A program made the translations under genes and the position numbers. Under the pieces are notes generated by a model. The model was not told the origin of the DNA, made no database searches, and saw nothing but the letters and a program-made list of their open reading frames with translations. A stretch of 64,000 nucleotides of DNA from Clostridia bacterium (GTDB taxonomy: Bacteria > Bacillota > Clostridia > UMGS1883 > UMGS1540), in the NCBI GenBank assembly GCA_017620205.1, contig JAFZQX010000019.1, forward strand, positions 18,887 through 82,886, given 5' to 3'. Each line of letters begins with the position of its first letter. Position 1 is the stretch's first letter. Below, piece by piece: positions 22,700-51,661 of this stretch.

Positions 22700-25099
22700 G
22701 TGGACACGCTCATCTCAGGCGCAATTGACCGAGCAAAGGGAATACAGAGGTCTTATGAATTCATGCGAGACAATGCGGAAGAAACGGATAGTGGGGGCAG
22801 GGCGCTTTTTGTTGGAATAAGGTCTAACACGGCAAGCGAAAGCCTTTATGCAGAAGCTTTGAAAATGGAAGCTGACGGCAAAAGCAAAGAAGATATACTT
22901 AAAGAGACAGGTTGGCTTAAAGGTGCTGACGGTAAGTGGCGTTTTGAGATAAACGATAAAGATTTGCAGTTTAATAGTCACGGCTTCTTTTCAAATCCCG
23001 ATGTACAAAGATACAAAGCACTTGAACTTAAATTTATCAATGGCGAGATAACAGAGAGCGAAGCAACAGAATTAAAACAACTACAAAAGAGCTTAGAGGG
23101 AGTTAAGAAAAACCCTAAAACGCTTGGCGACTATGTTAAACACGATGCCTTGTTTGAAGCGTATCCGTTTTTGCGCGATCTGGCTTTAAGTTTTTCTGAC
23201 AGCATGGCTTTTGGGAATCGCGGCTCTTTTAACGGGGAAGAAATAACCCTTAACAGTAAATTGCTAAAAGACGAGGCGAGGCTTAAAAGAACTCTCATTC
23301 ATGAAATACAGCACGCAATTCAAGATTATGAAGGCTTTGCGGGCGGCTCAAATCCTGATTACTTCACCAAAAATATAGCTTTAACTGAAAATGAAATCAG
23401 AAATGCAGAAGAAGCGGCGGGCAATTTGAAAAGCGCAGAGGACCGGCTGCTTGAGTATAAAGATGAAAACGGTGACGATGTTTATCTTGAACTTGCAGAA
23501 GAATATGAGAAGTTGTCAAATTTATTGTACGGAGACGAACAGATAGACGATGAAGCGATTGAAAGAAGGTTGGAAGAAATTGAACAAGCCTTTGCTGAAG
23601 TGGGCGCAGATGACTTACTGTTTGAATACCTTTCGTCTAAACAAACATTGGAAAGAATTAAGAATAGGCGCAAAAACAAATTCGGCTCATTTGAGATGTA
23701 TCACAATACCGCAGGCGAGGAAGAAGCACGCGACAGCGCAAACCGCATCGACATGACAGACGAAGAACGCCGCGAAACGTTCCCCGAAAGCGCAAAGGAA
23801 AATCCTGATAGGGTGTTTGCGGGTGCGGACGAAAACGTTTTAAGTTTGTCGGTTGACAATTCGATATTAGACGAATACAACATAAGCAAACTTAACGATT
23901 ATGTTCATGTGCAAAAGCAGGTTTTAGAAAAACTTAAAAGCAATGGCTTTTTCTCTGACAAGGGCGGGAAAAGTCTTACGGTTGTGAACGATGAAAGCGG
24001 TATGGTTGTGGAGATTGCCCCGAAAGGAATAAAAGAAACTTTTGGAAAGGGAAACCGGTTTGAAACGTTGCCGCGTGAAATTAAACTTGCAAAGTTATCG
24101 ACAATATACGACATACCAAACATAATAAAAGTCGGTAGACTCATTGAGGCTGATGTCAAAAACTATCATAACGAAAACAGCAGTTTGAGGTATGCGTATA
24201 TAGTAGGAGACGCTGAAATAAACGATGAATCAGCAATAATAAAAATAACAGTTAGGCAGTCACCGCAAAAAAATAAGTTTTGGATGCACCAAATTGACAT
24301 TGACACAAAAGAAAATATCGAAAGCAAGCCCACTGGCGCGAACTCTGAAAGAGCAAGCGCTAAAATGGGTTTAACTACTTTCGATATTGATGATAGTCTA
24401 TCACAATCAGAAGGCGATGTCAAGCCCAAGTTTTCTTTTGACTCCTCTGTTGAAGAAACAAAAGACCAAATCTACACCGACAACTTCAAAGAATGGTTTG
24501 GAGATTGGCAGAATGACCCCGAAAACGCAAGCAAGGTAGTTAATGAGGACGGTACGCCGAAGGTTGTGTATCACGGGACAGATAACAGCTTTACTGTATT
24601 TGATATTTCTTTAGCAGGACAAAACAGTTATAATTTTTACGGAGACGGATTTTATTTTTCTGACAAAAAGAAGGGTGCACGTAATTACGGGGATAATATC
24701 ATACCTGCATATTTAGACATTAAAAATCCGTATTATGCTACCGAAAAAGACGCGGGAAGAATAAACCCGAAAAAGCTAATTGAACAGAAATATGACGGTA
24801 TAATAATAAAAAGCCCTTCTGGGGAAAACTTCGTTGTATTCAATCCCACCCAAATCAAATCCGCAACAGACAACATAGGCACATTTGACAAATCAAATCC
24901 CGATATACGTTTCTCCTTCGATGACATGGACGATGACGAACTGTTTGAAATGTTTACTGACGATGTTCCCGTGCAAGACGAGGTTATAAAACGCGCAAAA
25001 GAGAACTTCAATATTGACAAGGCAAATAAGCTTGTGTCTAATATCATAATACACAAAAAACGGTTGCGGCAATTACCGCAACCGTTTTTAAATACTTGA
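22700..25099 (+). CDS. 5'-truncated fragment of a phage/conjugative-element 'polyvalent' protein; zincin-like HExxH metallopeptidase motif plus C-terminal H-Y-E-class ADP-ribosyltransferase-like domain
   Basis: The reading frame is open from 22457, directly after a TAA, with no ATG before the GTG at 22700. A zincin-like HExxH motif is present (HEIQHAIQ). The C-terminus carries VVYHGT, YNFYGDGFYF and GENFVVFN motifs resembling the diphtheria-toxin/PARP H-Y-E ADP-ribosyltransferase (ART) signature. The sequence is acidic and low-complexity, and a terminator hairpin is embedded in the last codons. Confidence 0.5.
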   Translation: MDTLISGAIDRAKGIQRSYEFMRDNAEETDSGGRALFVGIRSNTASESLYAEALKMEADGKSKEDILKETGWLKGADGKWRFEINDKDLQFNSHGFFSNPDVQRYKALELKFINGEITESEATELKQLQKSLEGVKKNPKTLGDYVKHDALFEAYPFLRDLALSFSDSMAFGNRGSFNGEEITLNSKLLKDEARLKRTLIHEIQHAIQDYEGFAGGSNPDYFTKNIALTENEIRNAEEAAGNLKSAEDRLLEYKDENGDDVYLELAEEYEKLSNLLYGDEQIDDEAIERRLEEIEQAFAEVGADDLLFEYLSSKQTLERIKNRRKNKFGSFEMYHNTAGEEEARDSANRIDMTDEERRETFPESAKENPDRVFAGADENVLSLSVDNSILDEYNISKLNDYVHVQKQVLEKLKSNGFFSDKGGKSLTVVNDESGMVVEIAPKGIKETFGKGNRFETLPREIKLAKLSTIYDIPNIIKVGRLIEADVKNYHNENSSLRYAYIVGDAEINDESAIIKITVRQSPQKNKFWMHQIDIDTKENIESKPTGANSERASAKMGLTTFDIDDSLSQSEGDVKPKFSFDSSVEETKDQIYTDNFKEWFGDWQNDPENASKVVNEDGTPKVVYHGTDNSFTVFDISLAGQNSYNFYGDGFYFSDKKKGARNYGDNIIPAYLDIKNPYYATEKDAGRINPKKLIEQKYDGIIIKSPSGENFVVFNPTQIKSATDNIGTFDKSNPDIRFSFDDMDDDELFEMFTDDVPVQDEVIKRAKENFNIDKANKLVSNIIIHKKRLRQLPQPFLNT

Positions 25100-44785: not shown

Positions 44786-44814
44786 TTGACAAACTGTTAT
44801 AATTTTGCTATAAT
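44786..44814 (+). promoter_or_regulatory. sigma-A promoter (TTGACA-17-TATAAT) of the tRNA operon
   Basis: Perfect consensus hexamers about 15 nt upstream of tRNA-Gly. Confidence 0.6.
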
Positions 44815-44829
44815 AGACAAGTCGACCAC

Positions 44830-44903
44830 GCGGGTGTAGTTCAGTGGTAGAACATCAGCCTTCCAAGCTGATTGTGTGGGTTCGATTCCCATCACCCGCT
44901 CCA
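44830..44903 (+). tRNA. tRNA-Gly (anticodon UCC)
   Basis: 74-nt cloverleaf with anticodon loop cUUCCAAg and encoded CCA. Confidence 0.9.
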
Positions 44904-44906
44904 TAT

Positions 44907-44983
44907 GCGCCTGTAGCTCAGCAGGATAGAGCAACTGCCTTCTAAGCAGTGGGCCAGGAGTTCGAGTCTCTTCAGGCGCGCCA
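44907..44983 (+). tRNA. tRNA-Arg (anticodon UCU)
   Basis: 77-nt cloverleaf with anticodon stem ACTGC/GCAGT, loop CTTCTAA and encoded CCA. Confidence 0.85.
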
Positions 44984-44987
44984 ACAT

Positions 44988-45065
44988 GGTGGGTATAGCT
45001 CAGTTGGTTAGAGCGCTGGTTTGTGGCACCAGAGGTCGTCGGTTCGACCCCGACTACCCACCCCA
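44988..45065 (+). tRNA. tRNA-His (anticodon GUG)
   Basis: 78 nt including the His-specific G-1. It is nearly colinear with E. coli tRNA-His (GGTGG.TATAGCTCAGTTGGT.AGAGC), ends in CCA and carries anticodon GTG. Confidence 0.9.
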
Positions 45066-45100
45066 ACTTCTATTTCTGGGGTGTGCCGTTTAAGTGACGA

Positions 45101-45175
45101 TGGGCTGTAGCCAAGCGGTAAGGCACCAGACTTTGACTCTGGCATTCGTAGGTTCGAATCCTGCCAGCCCAGCCA
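45101..45175 (+). tRNA. tRNA-Gln (anticodon UUG)
   Basis: 75 nt with a U1-A72 acceptor pair, anticodon loop cUUUGAc and encoded CCA. Confidence 0.85.
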
Positions 45176-45195
45176 GATTTTATTTAACTTAATAT

Positions 45196-45271
45196 GACTC
45201 ATTAGCTCAGTTGGCAGAGCACTTGACTTTTAATCAAGGTGTCCGGAGTTCGAATCTCCGATGGGTCACCA
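45196..45271 (+). tRNA. tRNA-Lys (anticodon UUU)
   Basis: 76 nt with anticodon loop cUUUUAAu, T-arm GGAGTTCGAATCTCC and encoded CCA. Confidence 0.9.
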
Positions 45272-45275
45272 AAAA

Positions 45276-45310
45276 AGAGCCGTTCGCTTTAGCGAACAGT
45301 TCTTTTTTAT
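45276..45310 (+). terminator. rho-independent terminator of tRNA operon
   Basis: GTTCGC-ttta-GCGAAC hairpin followed by a T6 run. Confidence 0.65.
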
Positions 45311-45461
45311 ATCTCTCAGAGGAGATTCGAACTCTGAGAGGGCTGCGAGCCGTTAAGAAAACAGTTCGGTGAACTGTTTTTAGCGAAGCAGGTGCGCAAG
45401 GCGGGTACTGCACGCTGTGCGTGCGGTCGCCGAGCAGGGCAGATTTGCCATGCAAATGTGC

Positions 45462-45479
45462 ATCTCCGATGGGTCACCA
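45462..45479 (+). repeat. 18-nt direct repeat of the tRNA-Lys 3' end (ATCTCCGATGGGTCACCA)
   Basis: Identical to 45254-45271, which comprises the T-arm 3' strand, acceptor 3' strand and CCA of tRNA-Lys. This fits an integrase att-core remnant or a decayed tRNA duplication. Confidence 0.7.
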
Positions 45480-45672
45480 AAGCAAAAATCCTGTCACGAA
45501 GTGATAGGATTATTTGCTTTGTATTATTCATTTTTAAGTATTAATTCTTAAGTATTCATTAAATATGACAGGATTTTCTAAATGAATAATGAATACTTAA
45601 AACTTAATAATGAATAATTGGAAAATCGCAAAGACGATTTTGTTTATAACTAAAATTTAGAGGAGAACTAAA

Positions 45673-47278: not shown

Positions 47279-47325
47279 CATAAGTGGGACAAATGTACCA
47301 CTTAGGAATCGAAGGGTGTGTTTTT

Positions 47326-47922
47326 ATGCGAACTAAAAATCCGGAATACTTTGAAAAGATTTTAAACTGCATAGATAAATACAAAGAGGAGGCGGGCGCG
47401 TGTCCGACTGTGCGTGAGATAGCAGAAAAAACGGGTATTACAAAAACAACCGTTTCGCGTTATATTATGGATATGCGCGAGAGAAATATTATAGATTACA
47501 GCGGGCACAGGAATATAACAACCAAAAGAGACAGGGGCGAAACGGTAAAAGTGCCTCTGCTCGGTGCCGTATCGTGCGGCGTTCCGAAATACGCCGAGGA
47601 AAACATTGAGGAATATATAAAGCTTCCCGTGTCTCTTTTCGGCAAGGGAGAATATTTTCTTTTAAGGGCAAACGGGGATTCTATGATTGACGCCGGTATA
47701 GACGACGGTGATTTGGTTCTCCTGCGCGCGCAGAATACTGCGGAGACAGGGCAAATAGTTTCCGCGCTTATAGACGATGAAGCAACGCTTAAAAGGTTTT
47801 ATCCCGAACCGCAAAAGGGAAGAATAAAACTTCATCCCGAAAACAGCGCTCTTGAAGATATATATACGGACAAATGCGCAATACAGGGCGTTGCAGTTAA
47901 AGTTATAAAGGACTTGGTGTAA
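47326..47922 (+). CDS. lexA: LexA repressor (S24 peptidase)
   Basis: N-terminal winged HTH and C-terminal S24 domain with Ser (GDSM) and Lys (TLKRF). The sequence is close to Bacillus LexA across the cleavage and catalytic region. The start is chosen at the ATG after a GAAGGGTG RBS. Confidence 0.85.
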   Translation: MRTKNPEYFEKILNCIDKYKEEAGACPTVREIAEKTGITKTTVSRYIMDMRERNIIDYSGHRNITTKRDRGETVKVPLLGAVSCGVPKYAEENIEEYIKLPVSLFGKGEYFLLRANGDSMIDAGIDDGDLVLLRAQNTAETGQIVSALIDDEATLKRFYPEPQKGRIKLHPENSALEDIYTDKCAIQGVAVKVIKDLV

Positions 47923-47926
47923 AGAT

Positions 47927-48211
47927 ATGAAAAGCGAATATATAAGAGTGCCGCTTGAGGTCTATGTGCTTTGTGAGAGCGACGGCTCTTTCAGCCCCAA
48001 AAAACTTTTATATCACGATAAATCTTTCGAAATCACAAAAACGCTCTCTGTGCGCCCGAAATGCCCTAAAGAGGTCGGATGTATAGCGCCGCTTGAATAT
48101 ACCGTTTTAATAGACAATGAAGAGCGCAAAATCTACTACGAGCACGAAACGAATACATGGTTTTCCGTAAAGGAGATAAAAAATGAAGGAGCGAGCAATT
48201 CTGCACAGTGA
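47927..48211 (+). CDS. hypothetical small protein between lexA and Y-family polymerase (position analogous to YolD-like accessory proteins)
   Basis: 94-aa ORF, tightly packed and overlapping the polymerase start by 29 nt. No recognisable motif. Confidence 0.45.
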   Translation: MKSEYIRVPLEVYVLCESDGSFSPKKLLYHDKSFEITKTLSVRPKCPKEVGCIAPLEYTVLIDNEERKIYYEHETNTWFSVKEIKNEGASNSAQ

Positions 48212-49415
48212 CGCGAACAGCTTTTACGCGTCCGTTGAAACGGTTTTAAACCCCGCGCTTCGCGGGAAGGCTTTAGCTGTCTGCGGAAACAGGGAAGACA
48301 GGCACGGCATTGTGCTTGCAAAAAGCGAAAAAGCGAAAGCGGCGGGCGTTAAAACGGGAATGACCATATGGGAGGCGGAAAAGCTGTGCCCGGATCTTTT
48401 GGTGGCGCCGCCGCAGTATGAATATTATTTAAAGTTTTCAAAGCTTTTGTTCCAAATATACAGCCGCCATACAGACCTTATAGAGCCTTTTGGCATGGAC
48501 GAGTGCTGGCTTGACGTTACAAATTCGGCAAGGCCGCCTATGGAGACAGCGGAAGATATACGGTGTGCCGTTCGCGACGAACTCGGCATAACGGTAAGCA
48601 TAGGCGTATCGTTTAATAAAGTTTTTGCAAAGCTTGGCAGCGACATGAAAAAGCCCGATGCGATAACGGAAATAACAAGAGAAAATTTTAAAGAAAAGGT
48701 ATGGCCTCTGCCGTGCTCCGACCTTATCTATTGCGGCAGGGCTACTACGGCGCACCTAAAAAAACTTAATGTTAAAACAATAGGCGACATTGCCGCGTAT
48801 CCGCAGGAGTATTTAAAAAAGAAGCTTGGAAAAAGCGGAGCTATGCTTTGGGACTTTGCAAACGGACTTGATACATCAAGAGTTTCGCACATGGATTATA
48901 AAGTTCCGGCAAAATCTCTCGGTCACGGAATAACGTGCGTATCGGATATTGAAAATACGGAAGATGCGGAAAAGGTTATATACGCGCTTTCACAGGATAT
49001 AGGCTATAAACTGCGGCTTATGGAGCTTAAAGCTTGCGGTGTGCATCTTTTTGTCAGAGACAACAAGCTTTTGACGGTAGGCTGGCAGGCACCGCTTGAA
49101 GTACCGAGTTCGGATGAGAGTATCATAGCAGAAAAAGCGTTTGAAATTTTAAAGGAAAACTATACATGGGAAAAGCCCATACGCGCACTGACTGTTACAT
49201 CCATAGGGCTTGTAACCAAGAGCTTTCCGGAGCAGATAAATGTGTTTTTTGATAATGAAAAATCCGATAAAAGAGAACGTCTTTGCAAAAGCATAGACAG
49301 CATTAAAGAGAAATTTGGCAAAAAAACAATATTTCCGGCGGTAGTGCTGAATGAGAGTAAAATGCCGTCCCATGCGGGAAAAGAGATCATTATGCCAAAC
49401 CAAATGTACCGTTGA
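48183..49415 (+). CDS. Y-family translesion DNA polymerase (DinB/UmuC-like)
   Basis: N-terminal ILHSDANSFYASVE (matches the Y-family catalytic motif of DinB/UmuC polymerases), palm/finger motifs and a little-finger domain. An AAGGAG RBS precedes it. Confidence 0.85.
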   Translation: MKERAILHSDANSFYASVETVLNPALRGKALAVCGNREDRHGIVLAKSEKAKAAGVKTGMTIWEAEKLCPDLLVAPPQYEYYLKFSKLLFQIYSRHTDLIEPFGMDECWLDVTNSARPPMETAEDIRCAVRDELGITVSIGVSFNKVFAKLGSDMKKPDAITEITRENFKEKVWPLPCSDLIYCGRATTAHLKKLNVKTIGDIAAYPQEYLKKKLGKSGAMLWDFANGLDTSRVSHMDYKVPAKSLGHGITCVSDIENTEDAEKVIYALSQDIGYKLRLMELKACGVHLFVRDNKLLTVGWQAPLEVPSSDESIIAEKAFEILKENYTWEKPIRALTVTSIGLVTKSFPEQINVFFDNEKSDKRERLCKSIDSIKEKFGKKTIFPAVVLNESKMPSHAGKEIIMPNQMYR

Positions 49416-49456
49416 CAAGCTTAAAAACATATGTTATTCTTGAAATAAGAGGTGAT

Positions 49457-50494
49457 ATGATGCCGTTTAATATTATACGTGACGATATAACAAGACTTGA
49501 TATGGACGCCATAGTAAACGCCGCAAACAGCAGGCTGGCGTATGGCGGCGGCGTTTGCGGTGCGATATTTTCGGCTGCGGGCGCAGCTGAACTCCAGGCG
49601 GAGTGCGATAAAATAGGATATTGCGAAACGGGCGGTGCGGTTATTACAAATGGTTATAATCTTAAAGCAAAATATATAATACACACCGTAGGACCTATAT
49701 ACGGCGAAAACCCAAAAGAAGAGGAGAAACAGCTTTATTCATGCTACAAAAACTCGTTGGAGCTTGCAGCCGGGCATAAGCTTGAATCTATCGCTTTTCC
49801 GCTGATTTCGTCAGGCATATACGGTTATCCGAAAGCAGAAGCATTAAAAATAGCTACAAAAGCAATTAAAGATTTTCTTGCGGAAAATGATATGGACGTG
49901 TATCTTGTTGTTTATGACAAGGCCTCGTTTCATATAAGCGAAAAGCTTTTTGACAGCGTAAAAAGCTATATTGACGATAAATTGATAAAGCCGGACAGCA
50001 GGCGGTGCTTGTGCGATGAAGGGGTTTCTGTGCCGTTGCCGTGTTTGGCAGACAAAGAATATGATTACATACCCGAAGGCTCAACGTTACAAGGCGCACC
50101 TTCTGCTAAAATACAGTTTGAGAAAAAAGAATCACTTGACGCTCTTTTAAATAAAAAAACGGAAACGTTTTCGGAAATGCTTCTGCGTCTTATAGACGAG
50201 AGAGGAATGTCGGATGTTGAGGTTTACAAAAGAGCAAACATAGACAGAAAGCTTTTTTCGAAGATGAGAAAAAAAGACTATATGCCGAAAAAAACTACAG
50301 TTATGGCGCTTGTGATTTCGCTGAAGCTTGGCAAAAAAGAAGCTGAAATGCTTTTAAACCGTGCGGGTTTTGCCTTTTCCGAAAGCAGCAAGTTCGATAT
50401 TATAATAGAATATTTTATAGAAAACGGAATATATGATATATATGAAATAAACGAAGCGCTGTTTGCGTTTGAAGAAAAGCTTTTGGGCGCATAG
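49457..50494 (+). CDS. macro-domain protein (ADP-ribose/O-acetyl-ADP-ribose hydrolase-like) fused to C-terminal XRE-type HTH-like domain
   Basis: N-terminal macro motifs (DAIVNAANSRLAYGGGVCGAIF, HTVGP, AFPLISSGIYGYP). The C-terminal ~120 aa resemble an HTH_3 domain (FSEMLLRLIDERGMSDVEVYKRANIDRKLFSKM). Confidence 0.7.
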   Translation: MMPFNIIRDDITRLDMDAIVNAANSRLAYGGGVCGAIFSAAGAAELQAECDKIGYCETGGAVITNGYNLKAKYIIHTVGPIYGENPKEEEKQLYSCYKNSLELAAGHKLESIAFPLISSGIYGYPKAEALKIATKAIKDFLAENDMDVYLVVYDKASFHISEKLFDSVKSYIDDKLIKPDSRRCLCDEGVSVPLPCLADKEYDYIPEGSTLQGAPSAKIQFEKKESLDALLNKKTETFSEMLLRLIDERGMSDVEVYKRANIDRKLFSKMRKKDYMPKKTTVMALVISLKLGKKEAEMLLNRAGFAFSESSKFDIIIEYFIENGIYDIYEINEALFAFEEKLLGA

Positions 50495-50506
50495 GGGAGG
50501 GATAAT

Positions 50507-50935
50507 ATGATATATACGGATATGACTAAGAAGGCACTAAAACTGTCGTTTGAAGCACATAAGGATCAATTTGATAAAAGCGGGATGCCGTATGTTTATC
50601 ACCCTTTTCATCTCGCTGAGCAAATGAAAGATGAAAATACAACAATTGTTGCGCTCCTGCATGATGTTGCAGAGGATACCGGCATTACAATAGATAACAT
50701 CAGAGACATGGGGTTTTGCGAAGAAGTATGCGCCGCACTAAGTCTTATGACACATGACGATAATACTCCGTATATGGAATACGTAAGCAAATTAAAGAGC
50801 AATCCAATAGCAAAAGCCGTAAAGTTAGCTGATTTAAAGCACAACAGCGACTTGGCAAGACTGGACATAGTTGACGAAAAGGCCTTAAAAAGAGTAGAAA
50901 AATATAAAGCCGCTATGGAAGAACTTTTAAAATAA
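50507..50935 (+). CDS. small alarmone hydrolase (SAH; stand-alone SpoT/Mesh1-like HD domain)
   Basis: 142 aa with H..H...HD metal motif (YHPFHLAE, ALLHDVAEDT) as in RelA/SpoT hydrolase domains. It has no synthetase or TGS/ACT domains. Confidence 0.65.
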   Translation: MIYTDMTKKALKLSFEAHKDQFDKSGMPYVYHPFHLAEQMKDENTTIVALLHDVAEDTGITIDNIRDMGFCEEVCAALSLMTHDDNTPYMEYVSKLKSNPIAKAVKLADLKHNSDLARLDIVDEKALKRVEKYKAAMEELLK

Positions 50936-50958
50936 AATTTGTCGCTTTAAAAGCGACC

Positions 50959-51008
50959 ATACCTCCTTTAATTGATGATAGACTTAGGTCATCAAATGAA
51001 GGAGGTAT
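50959..51008 (+). promoter_or_regulatory. 20-bp hairpin sequestering the Shine-Dalgarno of the vWA gene
   Basis: ATACCTCCTT...TGATGA-loop-TCATCA...AAGGAGGTAT forms a near-perfect 20-bp stem with one mismatch. The 3' arm is the AAGGAGG RBS, 8 nt upstream of ATG 51014. Confidence 0.5.
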
Positions 51009-51013
51009 TTATT

Positions 51014-51661
51014 ATGAACAAAAACTTAACAGAGGTAGTATTTATTCTTGACAGAAGCGGATCAATGTCAAATCTTGAGGAGGATACAATTGGCGGCTAC
51101 AACAGCTTGCTCGAAAAGCAGCAAAAAGAAGAGGGTGAAGCGGTAATCACAACGGTGCTTTTTGATGACAAATACGATATGCTTCATGACCATGCAGATG
51201 TTAAAAAGGTAAAACAGATAACCTCAAAGGAGTACTTCGCAAGAGGGATGACGGCATTGCTTGACGCTGTGGGAAAAACAATAAACCATGTAGGAAAAAG
51301 ACACAAATACGCGCCGGACAACGAAATTCCCGCGAGAACGTTGGTGGTAATTATTACAGACGGGTTTGAAAATGCCAGCAGAGAGTTTTCTCAGCCGCAA
51401 ATCAAATCAATGATAGAGCATCAAAAAGAAAAATATGGATGGGAGTTTTTGTTTTTAGGCGCTAATATTGATGCTGTTGAAACGGCCAATACATACGGAA
51501 TCTGCGCAGACAGGGCTGTAACATATGAGGCGGACGAATTGGGAACAAGAATGAATTTTGATGTTGTAAGCAGAACGGTATCGGCGGTAAGAATGGCACA
51601 GCCGCTTGGCGCAGACTGGAAAGAGGATATAGAAAAACGTTTTAAAAAGAAGATAAGATAA
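51014..51661 (+). CDS. stand-alone cytoplasmic von Willebrand factor A (vWA) domain protein
   Basis: MIDAS motif DRSGSMS, T (GMTAL) and D (ITDGFEN) residues. No signal peptide. The start is chosen at ATG 51014; the ORF is open from 50972. Confidence 0.75.
   Translation: MNKNLTEVVFILDRSGSMSNLEEDTIGGYNSLLEKQQKEEGEAVITTVLFDDKYDMLHDHADVKKVKQITSKEYFARGMTALLDAVGKTINHVGKRHKYAPDNEIPARTLVVIITDGFENASREFSQPQIKSMIEHQKEKYGWEFLFLGANIDAVETANTYGICADRAVTYEADELGTRMNFDVVSRTVSAVRMAQPLGADWKEDIEKRFKKKIR

What the first reader, a model, noticed from the sequence alone, without database searches (positions are those of the whole stretch)
45272..45480. att-site-like scar: 18-nt duplicate of the tRNA-Lys 3' end 190 bp downstream
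ATCTCCGATGGGTCACCA (T-arm 3' strand + acceptor + CCA) recurs exactly at 45462-45479. Between the copies lie the tRNA terminator and a diverged second copy of it (GAGCCGTT...ACAGTTC...TTTAGCGAA seen twice). There is also a perfect 9-bp inverted repeat (CTCTCAGAG/CTCTGAGAG) and an unusually GC-rich stretch. A tRNA 3'-end direct repeat is the classic footprint of tyrosine-integrase-mediated integration. Here the bracketed segment is only about 190 bp, which suggests an excised or deleted island or a very small integrated element. Genes just downstream (Dabb, SLH protein, the lexA/Y-polymerase/macro/SAH/vWA run) could be the remainder of such an island.
Basis: seen in the sequence. Interest (0 to 1): 0.55.

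Follow-up and report, generated by a model that had tools for sequence, protein, structure and literature searches.

The report
Structured RNA module docked on tRNA-Lys
The repeat of the tRNA-Lys 3' end is real. It is not a bare recombination scar: it closes a conserved, folded, roughly 160-nt RNA-like module that sits behind tRNA-Lys in several Clostridia, is missing from the closest relatives, and matches no described RNA family.

Summary
ATCTCCGATGGGTCACCAAA (20 nt) occurs exactly twice, at 45254-45273 (end of tRNA-Lys-UUU) and at 45462-45481.

The 188 bp between the copies hold a bidirectional terminator and a GC-rich segment of about 140 nt. That segment is conserved. Five other Clostridia contigs carry a homologue directly behind their own tRNA-Lys(UUU), and each ends in a copy of that genome's own tRNA 3' end. 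A sixth contig (L390) carries a truncated copy.

Helices covary: 92.9% of cells are paired, and 16 pairs changed on both sides. G.U pairs and folding energies favour a plus-strand RNA. Its 5' GGAGAU pairs with the repeat's AUCUCC, like a T-stem, which leaves GAUGGGUCACCA as a 3' tail. Rfam 15, phage records, plasmid records and viral contigs give no match.

Two of the closest relatives have an empty site at the same locus, and one has the truncated copy. Two further relatives have a tyrosine-integrase prophage at this tRNA-Lys.

The downstream genes (Dabb, LexA-like, Y-polymerase) lie outside the repeats. Their order is kept next to empty sites, so they are not an island remnant.

Best reading: an accessory module, gained and lost as a unit, that encodes an sRNA ending in a tRNA-Lys 3' mimic. 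Its function and its mode of spread are inferred, not shown.

The parts
44786..44814 (+). Promoter of the tRNA operon (TTGACA, 17-nt spacer, TATAAT, with TG)
   Evidence: 12 of 12 consensus matches. It lies upstream of tRNA-Gly at 44830.
44830..45271 (+). tRNA cluster Gly(UCC)-Arg(UCU)-His(GUG)-Gln(UUG)-Lys(UUU)
   Evidence: The same cluster occurs in relatives L008, L272, L274 and L389.
45196..45271 (+). tRNA-Lys(UUU), intact; its 3' end is repeat copy 1
   Evidence: 69.4 bits against Rfam tRNA.
45254..45273 (+). Direct repeat copy 1: ATCTCCGATGGGTCACCAAA (T-loop AU, T-stem 3' strand, acceptor 3' strand, A73, CCA, then AA)
   Evidence: D4.
45272..45308 (+). Terminator 1 (A-tract, hairpin, T-tract), terminator-like on both strands; it ends the tRNA operon
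   Evidence: I7, 18-nt arms, 89% complementary; terminator-like on both strands. It is part of the 208-bp block that is absent from the empty sites L388 and L389.
45303..45320 (+). T-run and TTATAT box 8 nt upstream of GGAG: a possible -10 element for the module RNA (inferred)
   Evidence: By eye: TTATAT, TATATT or TTATAC lies 5-8 nt before GGAG/GGGG in the window, L029, L028 and L031. The sigma-70 scan found no full promoter here.
45313..45340 (+). Perfect 9-bp inverted repeat; only its 3' arm (CUCUGAGAG) belongs to the conserved module, and the 5' arm is specific to this lineage
   Evidence: I24; alignment; L390 has one mismatch.
45316..45481 (+). Conserved structured RNA module (covariance-model match over the full model length)
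   Evidence: 158.4 bits, E 8e-38. Homologues score 130-172 bits in L026, L028, L029 and L031, and 89 bits in the truncated copy in L390.
45321..45326 (+). P1 5' strand GGAGAU, followed by the T-loop-like UUCGAAC
   Evidence: 6 pairs with 45462-45467. L028 has GGGGAU/AUCCCC (a change on both sides). The model aligns a real tRNA T-arm onto P1 with a 130-nt deletion.
45355..45386 (+).
   Evidence: (I15), 37 and 41: 4 pairs changed on both sides; invariant G.U pairs at alignment columns 38-68 and 42-66.
45400..45431 (+). P4: GGCG..ACUG-hairpin-CGGU.CGCC
   Evidence: helices 6 and 7, 95-100% of cells paired, 5 pairs changed on both sides; U.G at columns 94-110 in 4 of 5 sequences and C-G in the fifth.
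45439..45461 (+). P5 hairpin (GCAGAUUUGC / GCAAAUGUGC)
   Evidence: helix 8, 4 of 4 pairs changed on both sides. L390 is truncated inside this helix.
45462..45481 (+). Direct repeat copy 2: AUCUCC is the P1 3' strand; GAUGGGUCACCA is the predicted single-stranded tRNA-Lys-like 3' tail
   Evidence: In every homologue the copy matches that genome's own tRNA-Lys (GGGTC or GGATC).
45478..45521 (+). Terminator 2, the start of the original tRNA-Lys trailer
   Evidence: 11-pair stem at 45487-45511; I25. The region 45480-45672 shows weak local similarity to the trailer of the empty-site relative L388 (score 26 against 18.7 +/- 2.9 for shuffles, 6 of 300 shuffles as high).
45485..45618 (.). AT-rich nested palindromes between the module and Dabb; host trailer, not part of the module
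   Evidence: I1, I2, I9-I11. The same architecture is seen in L388 and L389.

Best explanation
The 208-bp block at 45274-45481 consists of terminator 1, a scaffold of about 140 nt and a second copy of the last 20 nt of tRNA-Lys. [quoted passage not shown] It is not leftover DNA from a deleted island.

The module encodes a plus-strand structured RNA of about 160 nt. The RNA's 5' end (GGAGAU, followed by a T-loop-like UUCGAAC) base-pairs with the AUCUCC of the duplicated tRNA segment. This forms a T-stem-like closing helix (P1) around a junction that carries four further helices (P2-P5). The duplicated acceptor strand, discriminator base and CCA (GAUGGGUCACCA) then hang off P1 as a 3' tail, followed by a terminator. 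In effect the RNA presents the 3' side of the 'top half' (T-arm and acceptor arm) of tRNA-Lys without the 5' acceptor strand.

Shown: the anatomy; the conservation; the covariation and strand preference; the exclusive association with tRNA-Lys(UUU); presence, absence and decay among close relatives.

Inferred: (a) the RNA is transcribed, either from an AT-rich -10-like box just upstream or by read-through of terminator 1. (b) It acts through its tRNA-Lys-like 3' end. The most likely modes are offering a free acceptor strand plus NCCA that can pair with a GAYYCAU sequence (the geometry of an RNase P external guide or of a tRNA minihelix), or titrating or recruiting factors that read tRNA 3' ends. 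(c) The module is gained and lost as a unit by recombination at the tRNA 3' end. Loss would be by deletion between the direct repeats. Gain would be by site-specific or duplicative insertion. I cannot tell which gain mechanism operates.
For: Repeat and anatomy.

Homologues at the same position in other genomes. L008 was found through an upstream protein. L026, L028, L029 and L031 were found in the metagenome scan. L390 was found through Dabb. All sit directly after tRNA-Lys(UUU) plus a trailer. This holds whether the tRNA is last in a cluster, internal to a cluster (L026: Gly-Arg-His-Lys-[module]-Gln-Ala) or solitary.

Structure: RNAalifold predicts 52 pairs. 92.9% of cells are paired, against 39-51% when partners are slid. 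16 pairs changed on both sides, and 0 of 500 shuffles reached any measure.

Strand: the plus-strand MFE is 9-14 kcal/mol better in all 5 sequences. There are 25 G.U cells against 5 A.C cells, and three conserved G.U pairs.

Scaffold identity is only 58-68% between lineages, yet the helices are kept.

P1: GGAGAU/AUCUCC in three lineages, GGGGAU/AUCCCC in L028, and one A.C mismatch in its sister L031.

The tail follows lineage-specific tRNA variants (GGGUC against GGAUC).

No match to any described family or mobile DNA: Rfam 15; phage and plasmid blastn; viral-contig motif scans and the covariance model on 100 viral loci that carry a tRNA-Lys 3' end.

Indel at the orthologous locus: L388 and L389 are empty, L390 is truncated, and the window's trailer 2 shows weak local similarity to the empty-site trailer.

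Flanks in all loci are housekeeping genes.
Against: There is no expression data, and no sigma-70-type promoter was found for the module.

Only 5 full sequences (about 4 independent lineages) support the structure.

Four of them were retrieved with a pattern that required CCGATGNNTCACCA twice, 175-205 nt apart. Tail conservation and the 200-209-nt period are therefore partly by construction. The unbiased cases are the window, L008 (14-nt repeat, different closing helix) and L390 (tail deleted).

L390 shows the module can decay, and L388/L389 show it is dispensable.

In the window's own single-sequence MFE, the 9-bp inverted repeat competes with P1 and P2.

No complementary 5' acceptor strand, target or partner protein was identified, so the functional step is speculative.

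Hairpin covariation alone would also fit DNA-level palindromes. Only the G.U asymmetry argues for RNA.
Confidence: 0.55

Rival explanations
1. Plain recombination scar. A tyrosine-integrase island or prophage integrated into the 3' end of tRNA-Lys and was later almost completely deleted. [quoted passage not shown]
For: A direct repeat of a tRNA 3' end is the classic integrase footprint. The same tRNA-Lys holds integrase-bearing prophages in L272 and L274, and a prophage attR in L354. The block is an indel relative to L388 and L389. CIMEs are a documented outcome of element decay (PMC5704250).
Against: The same reduced architecture recurs in at least 5 other lineages at 58-68% identity with compensatory changes. 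Independent decay would not give this. The inter-repeat DNA shows no similarity to the phage-side arms of L272 and L274 (sequences, compared by eye), or to any phage or plasmid record or viral contig. Phage att identity blocks at this tRNA begin in the anticodon loop (52 cases), not in the T-loop. No integrase remnant or pseudogene fits in 188 bp.
Confidence: 0.1
2. Non-autonomous mobile element that targets the tRNA-Lys 3' end. The roughly 190-bp module itself moves. Either an integrase supplied in trans does this (by accretion or cis-mobilisation, as for CIMEs), or an RNA-mediated, duplicative insertion does. In the second case the RNA's 3' tail would anneal to the tRNA gene, which would give a fixed left edge and a target duplication of variable length.
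For: The left edge of the repeat is the same T-loop position in 4 of 6 loci. The right edge varies: 14-20 nt in four loci, about 50 nt at about 85% identity in L026, and 60 nt at 95% identity including the whole species-specific terminator in L031. The trailers of the sister loci L028 and L031 are unrelated although their scaffolds are 90% identical. L031 keeps GGAG against its host's CCCC (a mismatch), while L028 has compensated, as expected if a scaffold arrived in a host with a different tRNA-Lys. Distribution among close relatives is patchy.
Against: No integrase, RT or transposase lies near any copy. There is one copy in 64 kb. There are no terminal inverted repeats. Scaffold divergence roughly tracks host divergence: about 92% for window against L390, where Dabb is 92% identical; barely alignable for window against L008, where the upstream protein is 44% identical. 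That pattern fits vertical descent with loss. Precise deletion between the repeats explains the empty sites equally well.
Confidence: 0.22
3. Orphan guide RNA of an RNA-guided nuclease or recombinase (TnpB or Cas12-type omega-RNA: a 5' scaffold plus a 3' guide of about 20 nt identical to the tRNA-Lys gene end).
For: Structured scaffold followed by 18-20 nt that match a specific DNA target and change with that target between genomes.
Against: No TnpB, IscB, Cas or IS110-type gene was found among the window ORFs I checked or among the flanking ORFs checked in the other loci. No Rfam family of any kind matches the scaffold, so any curated transposon guide-RNA family is excluded too. The first 6 nt of the would-be guide are sequestered in P1, with covariation. 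The intact tRNA gene 200 bp upstream would be a permanent self-target.
Confidence: 0.03
4. Minus-strand reading: an RNA beginning with 18 nt complementary to the tRNA-Lys 3' end (like a primer-binding site, or an antisense RNA), ending at the terminator 1 hairpin, which is also terminator-like on the minus strand.
For: The minus strand carries a perfect 18-20-nt complement of the tRNA-Lys 3' end, plus GAGTTCGAATCTCC, which is identical to the T-arm (I3). Terminator 1 is terminator-like on both strands. Weak promoter-like sites on the minus strand lie at 45551-45509.
Against: Minus-strand folds are 9-14 kcal/mol weaker in all five homologues. The conserved G.U pairs become A.C mismatches on the minus strand. 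No reverse transcriptase is nearby.
Confidence: 0.04

Closest known systems
attL/attR direct repeats of tyrosine-integrase elements in tRNA genes, and CIMEs (cis-mobilizable elements: att-flanked elements that lost their integration and transfer genes; PMC5704250)
   Same: Direct repeat made of the 3' end of a tRNA gene. The intact tRNA is on the left and a partial copy on the right. No recombinase gene lies inside. Presence or absence varies at the orthologous site. The same tRNA-Lys is used by integrase-bearing prophages in relatives.
   Different: Only about 190 bp lie between the repeats. The content is a conserved folded RNA-like module rather than decayed element genes. There is no detectable parent element. 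The repeat starts in the T-loop (18-20 nt), whereas phage att sites at this tRNA start in the anticodon loop (about 45 nt). In two lineages the duplication runs on through the species-specific trailer, which a fixed crossover site does not explain.
tRNA-like or tRNA-mimic bacterial RNAs (tmRNA tRNA-like domain; YrlA Y-RNA-like; from my own knowledge)
   Same: A non-tRNA RNA that ends in a T-stem-like helix continuous with an acceptor 3' strand and CCA. A T-loop-like UUCGAA lies next to that helix.
   Different: There is no 5' acceptor strand, so no acceptor helix in cis. There is no local T hairpin (P1 is closed across about 135 nt). ARAGORN and the Rfam tRNA, tmRNA and YrlA models do not recognise it. 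It copies the sequence of one specific tRNA (Lys-UUU) of the same genome.
RNase P external guide sequences (engineered; PMC11143913)
   Same: Short EGS designs of 15-20 nt correspond to the 3' acceptor strand plus the 3' T-stem strand with NCCA. That is exactly the content of the repeated 18-20 nt. [quoted passage not shown]
   Different: EGSs are an engineered concept, and I know of no natural bacterial example. No target carrying the complementary 5' strand was identified, and nothing was tested.
Functional RNAs from tRNA operon trailers (for example 3'ETS-leuZ in E. coli; from my own knowledge)
   Same: A non-tRNA RNA encoded immediately downstream of the last tRNA of an operon.
   Different: Here the RNA lies beyond a terminator, is much larger and more structured, and duplicates the tRNA's 3' end.
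TnpB/Cas12-type guide RNAs (omega-RNA)
   Same: A 5' scaffold with 3' target-matching nucleotides that change with the target.
   Different: There is no effector gene and no family match. Part of the 'guide' is base-paired in the scaffold. A self-target lies adjacent.

Membership tests
Integrase-borne island or prophage at a tRNA gene | Direct repeats consisting of the 3' part of the target tRNA gene | tested here: met
   20-nt exact repeat; 0.01 matches expected by chance.
Integrase-borne island or prophage at a tRNA gene | Tyrosine (or serine) recombinase gene inside the repeats, next to the tRNA | tested here: not met
   Only 188 bp lie between the repeats, and the ORFs there are spurious. 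There is no recombinase domain in any window ORF I checked. By contrast L272 and L274 do have one next to the same tRNA.
Integrase-borne island or prophage at a tRNA gene | Cargo with deviating composition or variable synteny between the repeats or adjacent to them | tested here: not met
   The region 45.7-51.7 kb has GC 0.411 against 0.408 for the window, and its tetranucleotide distance is not an outlier. The synteny Dabb, S24, Y-polymerase, Cu_amine_oxidN1 is kept beside the empty site in L388.
Integrase-borne island or prophage at a tRNA gene | Occupied and empty alleles at the orthologous site | tested here: met
   L388 and L389 are empty; the window and L001 are filled; L390 is filled but truncated.
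CIME (PMC5704250) | Retains attL and attR but has lost integration and transfer genes | tested here: met
   Repeats are present and no such genes are present.
CIME (PMC5704250) | Derived by decay of an ICE, IME or prophage (recognisable homology to a parent element) | tested here: not met
   No similarity to phage or plasmid records, to viral contigs or to the L272/L274 phage-side arms (sequences, compared by eye).
CIME (PMC5704250) | Excision or cis-mobilisation by an incoming element's integrase | not testable with these tools
   Needs excision PCR or read-level junction analysis.
Any Rfam 15 RNA family (including tRNA, tmRNA, YrlA, ribozymes, introns and transposon guide RNAs) | Covariance-model match at or near the gathering score | tested here: not met
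   Only noise hits (at most 35 bits against gathering scores of 90-114) over 45272-45481, and no consistent family in four homologues.
Conserved structured RNA (generic criteria) | Compensatory base-pair changes, better than shuffled and slid controls | tested here: met
   16 pairs changed on both sides; 0 of 500 shuffles reached this; 92.9% paired against 39-51% when slid. Caveat: only 5 sequences.
Conserved structured RNA (generic criteria) | Strand asymmetry (G.U tolerated, A.C not) | tested here: met
   25 G.U cells against 5 A.C cells; the plus-strand MFE is better in 5 of 5 sequences.
Conserved structured RNA (generic criteria) | Evidence of transcription | not testable with these tools
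   No RNA data. There is only a -10-like box, and no sigma-70 promoter was called.
MITE | Terminal inverted repeats, a short target duplication of fixed length, and many copies | tested here: not met
   There are no terminal inverted repeats at the block ends. The duplication is 14-60 nt and variable. There is a single copy in the window.
TnpB/IscB/Cas guide RNA | Adjacent RNA-guided effector gene | tested here: not met
RNase P external-guide-like RNA (functional analogy only) | Free 3' acceptor strand plus NCCA next to a T-stem/T-loop-like element | tested here: met
   By sequence and predicted structure only (PMC11143913).
RNase P external-guide-like RNA (functional analogy only) | A target RNA that pairs with the guide and is cleaved by RNase P | not tested
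   No target was identified. This needs biochemistry.

The most novel reading that the evidence does not exclude
The module is a self-defining, RNA-specified insertion. Its transcript ends in the last 18-20 nt of tRNA-Lys. That tail anneals to the tRNA-Lys gene and directs or primes insertion of a new copy, as a bacterial SINE-like retroposition or as RNA-assisted site-specific integration. This would explain three observations: the fixed left edge in the T-loop, the variable right edge that can include the host's own terminator, and the match of every copy to its host's tRNA. A related non-excluded reading is that the RNA is a natural external guide that recruits RNase P, or other tRNA-end enzymes, to RNAs carrying the tRNA-Lys 5' acceptor sequence.
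Probability: 0.08. Interest if true: 0.9.

Novelty: new variant of a known kind. Interest (0 to 1): 0.6.

Why it matters
Repeats of a tRNA 3' end are routinely read as dead integration scars. Here the 'scar' closes a folded RNA that has been kept over deep divergence and is built to present the 3' end of one particular tRNA.

If the RNA is expressed, it would be a new class of tRNA-end mimic tied physically to its model tRNA. It could bear on tRNA-Lys maturation or surveillance, or on traffic at a phage integration hot spot. It would also show that a very small att-flanked insertion can carry a functional RNA gene.

The finding also corrects an annotation risk: the SOS-like, macro and vWA genes downstream should not be called an island on the strength of this repeat.

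Tried and rejected
1. tmRNA, tRNA pseudogene or intron-containing tRNA: ARAGORN and Rfam see nothing at the second copy, and there is no 5' acceptor strand, D-arm or anticodon arm upstream of GGAG.

2. Minus-strand RNA with a primer-binding-site-like complement of tRNA-Lys: rejected on fold energies and G.U/A.C asymmetry.

3. Phage or plasmid origin of the scaffold: blastn in 'distant' mode against 50,697 phage and 72,556 plasmid records found nothing. Seven viral-contig scans gave only chance matches or ordinary tRNA-Lys genes and att sites. The covariance model on 100 of those loci gave 0 hits.

4. Finding the far end of the L272/L274 prophage to see whether the scaffold is its P arm: the contigs were too short. 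More distant integrase homologues (L275, L384, L386) target other tRNAs. The route is exhausted (look-ups 12 of 12, protein searches 3 of 3).

5. Guide RNA of TnpB, IscB or IS110: no effector gene.

6. Island remainder downstream: rejected on composition and on conserved synteny.

Copies with more than 205 nt or fewer than 175 nt between the repeats could therefore not be sought.

8. Coding potential: the ORFs of 50-73 aa across the region overlap on both strands. Homologues differ by indels that are not multiples of three, located in hairpin loops.

9. Literature searches found no description of such a module.
Full report
**1. The observation**

The window carries a tRNA operon. A perfect sigma-70 promoter lies at 44786-44814, followed by Gly-Arg-His-Gln-Lys at 44830-45271.

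There is no third match with up to 3 mismatches, and 0.01 matches are expected by chance. The exact repeat is 20 nt, ATCTCCGATGGGTCACCAAA.

Between the copies lie three features:
- a bidirectional intrinsic terminator (45272-45308);
- the perfect 9-bp inverted repeat (45313-45321 / 45332-45340);
- a GC-rich stretch (45384-45461, GC 0.64 against 0.408 for the window).

A second terminator follows copy 2 (45478-45521). An independent metagenome contig (L001) is identical through the whole region. One exception: the 'second copy of the terminator' shares three words with terminator 1, but in a different order, and it turns out to be a helix of a conserved structure.

**2. The bracketed DNA is conserved elsewhere, always behind tRNA-Lys(UUU)**

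A distant relative, L008, was found through the upstream DUF348-G5-3D protein, which is 44% identical. It has the same tRNA cluster, followed by a terminator, a GC-rich segment of about 150 nt and then a copy of its own tRNA-Lys 3' end (CCGATGGATCACCA), followed by another terminator.

One metagenome scan asked for a tRNA-Lys 3' end followed 175-205 nt later by CCGATGNNTCACCA. It returned six loci. Two are tandem tRNA-Lys genes. Four (L026, L028, L029, L031) carry clear homologues of the window's segment.

In L026 the module sits inside a tRNA operon (Gly-Arg-His-Lys-[module]-Gln-Ala). In L028 and L031 it follows a solitary tRNA-Lys.

Flanking genes are housekeeping in every case: ClpC-like, SpoIIGA-SigE-DUF1294 and a trypsin-SLH protein. 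The ORFs I checked in the 64-kb window are core genes with no integrase, transposase, RT or RNA-guided effector.

**3. It looks like a plus-strand structured RNA**

I aligned the five full copies (A3). RNAalifold predicts:
- a closing helix P1 (5' GGAGAU with 3' AUCUCC, the latter being the first six nucleotides of repeat copy 2);
- a small 5' hairpin next to a T-loop-like UUCGAAC;
- three hairpin arms, P3-P5.

92.9% of pair cells form standard pairs, against 39-51% when partners are slid by 1-3 columns. Sixteen pairs changed on both sides. No shuffle out of 500 reached any of the five measures.

The stems of P3, P4 and P5 have entirely different sequences in different lineages but stay paired. 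Overall scaffold identity is only 58-68% between lineages.

Strand evidence favours the plus strand. Every sequence folds 9-14 kcal/mol better on the plus strand. There are 25 G.U cells against 5 A.C cells. Three G.U pairs are conserved and would be mismatches on the minus strand.

A covariance model (R1) finds the five copies at 130-172 bits. Tellingly, it aligns each real tRNA-Lys T-arm onto P1 with a 130-nt deletion. In other words, the module is built like a T-stem whose loop has been expanded by about 135 nt, continuing into the acceptor 3' strand, A73 and CCA. No 5' acceptor strand is present, so GAUGGGUCACCA is predicted to be a free 3' tail.

P1 follows the host tRNA: GGAGAU/AUCUCC where the tRNA has CUCC, and GGGGAU/AUCCCC in L028. 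The sister copy in L031 has one A.C mismatch. The tail carries the lineage-specific acceptor variant (GGGUC or GGAUC) of the adjacent tRNA.

**4. It is not a described RNA or a known mobile DNA**

- Rfam 15 with permissive thresholds gives only noise over the module in the window and in four homologues.
- blastn against 50,697 phage and 72,556 plasmid records finds nothing.
- Exact-motif scans of IMG/VR find nothing real.
- About 100 viral-contig stretches do carry the tRNA-Lys 3' end. They are either whole tRNA genes (41) or att-type partial copies whose identity to the tRNA reaches 28-35 nt further 5', that is, it starts in the anticodon loop (52 cases). None is preceded by the scaffold.

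**5. Comparison with the closest relatives**

I retrieved contigs through proteins 92% identical to the window's Dabb.

- L388 and L389 have the same tRNA cluster. There tRNA-Lys runs straight into a terminator and an AT-rich palindromic trailer, then a 23S_rRNA_IVP-family gene, then Dabb. This is an empty site.
- The window's sequence after copy 2 shows a weak local similarity to that trailer (score 26 against 18.7 +/- 2.9 in shuffles, 6 of 300 as high). The sequence between the copies does not. The two trailers also share the same terminator-plus-palindrome layout. Taken together with the sequence at the junctions, this points to the 208-bp block as a clean indel bounded by the 20-bp repeat.
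- L390 has terminator 1 and a scaffold about 92% identical to the window's. It is truncated inside P5 and fused to the interior of an IVP-like gene, and it has substitutions at otherwise conserved positions. This is a decaying copy.
- In two more distant relatives (upstream protein 67% and 54% identical) the same tRNA-Lys is followed by a prophage with a tyrosine integrase (L272 and L274).
- The viral contig L354 shows a prophage attR joined to an L388-type trailer.

So the site is a true integration hot spot. The prophages there leave anticodon-loop repeats and no scaffold.

**6. The downstream genes are not an island remnant**

Dabb, SLH, S24/LexA-like, the 94-aa ORF, the Y-polymerase, Cu_amine_oxidN1, the beta-helix protein and SLH-vWA lie outside the repeats. 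They have background GC and tetranucleotide usage. They keep their order next to the empty site in L388 and in L390. Only the macro-HD-vWA trio (49412-51661) is variable.

**7. What it most likely is, and what remains open**

Shown: a discrete module of about 190-210 bp, attached to the 3' end of tRNA-Lys(UUU), bounded by a duplication of the tRNA's last 14-20 nt. It contains a terminator and a conserved, plus-strand, multi-helix RNA-like structure that uses the duplicated T-stem strand as one strand of its closing helix. It is present, absent or decayed among close relatives.

Inferred: it is transcribed. A T-run plus a TTATAT-like box lies 5-8 nt upstream of GGAG in four lineages, but no full promoter was called. 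It probably works through its tRNA-Lys-like end. The geometry is a T-stem/T-loop-like element continuous with an unpaired acceptor strand and NCCA. That is the geometry of the 3' side of a tRNA minihelix and of engineered RNase P external guide sequences (PMC11143913). My preferred, low-confidence functional guess is therefore pairing with a GAYYCAU 5' acceptor-type sequence, or titration or recruitment of enzymes that act on tRNA 3' ends.

How the module spreads is unresolved.
- For vertical descent with frequent loss: scaffold divergence tracks host divergence, and deletion between the repeats is easy.
- For insertion: the left edge is fixed in the T-loop and the right edge varies, reaching through the species-specific terminator in L031 (60 nt at 95%) and L026 (about 50 nt at about 85%). 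The trailers of the sister loci L028 and L031 are unrelated. L031 has a P1 mismatch that L028 has compensated.

**8. Caveats**

- Four homologues were found with a pattern that demanded the tail sequence and the spacing. The apparent invariance of the tail and the 200-209-nt period are therefore partly by construction. The unbiased cases are the window (20 of 20), L008 (14-nt repeat, different closing helix UGGUGA/UCACCA) and L390 (tail lost).
- The structure rests on five sequences, about four independent.
- No expression data exist.

**9. Verdict**

The closest known kinds are att-flanked CIME-like remnants and tRNA-mimic sRNAs. It meets the structural definition of a CIME but fails the 'decayed parent element' criterion, and it belongs to no Rfam family. 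I rate it a new variant of a known kind, with moderate-to-high interest because of the conserved tRNA-end-mimicking RNA.

Noticed in passing
window 45485-45618 (also L388:56-175, L389:871-990): Large AT-rich nested palindromes (12-nt perfect arms AAAATCCTGTCA/TGACAGGATTTT, 38-nt arms at 84% complementarity, repeated TATTCA/TGAATA words) lie between the tRNA trailer and Dabb. The same architecture, with diverged sequence, is present in relatives. Two metagenome contigs of the same species (L002, L003) break inside it. It may be an operator or regulatory region for Dabb, or a bidirectional terminator complex.
   Followed up: partly
window 49412-51661: The macro-domain, HD_4 and vWA-like genes are an indel relative to close relatives. 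They are absent in L388, where the Y-polymerase gene is followed directly by the Cu_amine_oxidN1 gene, and only a short macro gene is present in L390. This is a small variable cassette inside otherwise conserved synteny.
   Followed up: partly
L388:225-569, L389:1039-1383, L402:259-603; remnant at L390:~226-823; absent from the window: A 23S_rRNA_IVP-family (four-helix-bundle, Avd-like) gene sits between the tRNA-Lys trailer and Dabb in the closest relatives. It is truncated and fused to the decayed scaffold in L390, and missing from the window.
   Followed up: partly
L272:10025-11116 (-) and L274:10001-11092 (+): Prophages with 63%-identical tyrosine integrases are integrated at the 3' end of the same tRNA-Lys(UUU) in two relatives. 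The contig L273 ends exactly in the T-loop of tRNA-Lys.
   Followed up: partly
L402:1-87: In one Dabb-92% relative the same trailer follows a tRNA with a long variable arm (it looks like tRNA-Leu-UAA by eye; I did not run a tRNA scan on it) instead of tRNA-Lys. The junction right after a tRNA's CCA appears to be a general rearrangement point in this clade.
   Followed up: no
window 22700-25099: An 799-aa 'polyvalent' protein (ART-PolyVal, LPD23 and LPD3 domains), typical of conjugative or phage-derived DNA, is embedded among core genes. It may be a remnant of another mobile element.
   Followed up: no
window 47284-49415: An S24/LexA-like repressor, a 94-aa ORF with no family match and a Y-family polymerase form a conserved trio. 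It is also present in L388, L390 and L402. This is an SOS-mutagenesis-type cassette that belongs to the conserved synteny, not to an island.
   Followed up: partly
window 45278-45302 and 45347-45387: Terminator 1 and helix P3 share the words GAGCCGTT, ACAGTTC and TTTAGCGAA. The 3' arm of terminator 1 (AACAGTTC) is perfectly complementary to the 3' strand of P3 (GAACTGTT), so an alternative pairing is possible in a read-through transcript. This is seen only in the window/L390 lineage.
   Followed up: partly
L027:6576-6806 and L030:8096-8326: Tandem tRNA-Lys(UUU) genes lie 209 nt apart, each with its own promoter-like spacer, in an unrelated bioreactor organism. They were false positives of the two-copy pattern.
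   Followed up: yes
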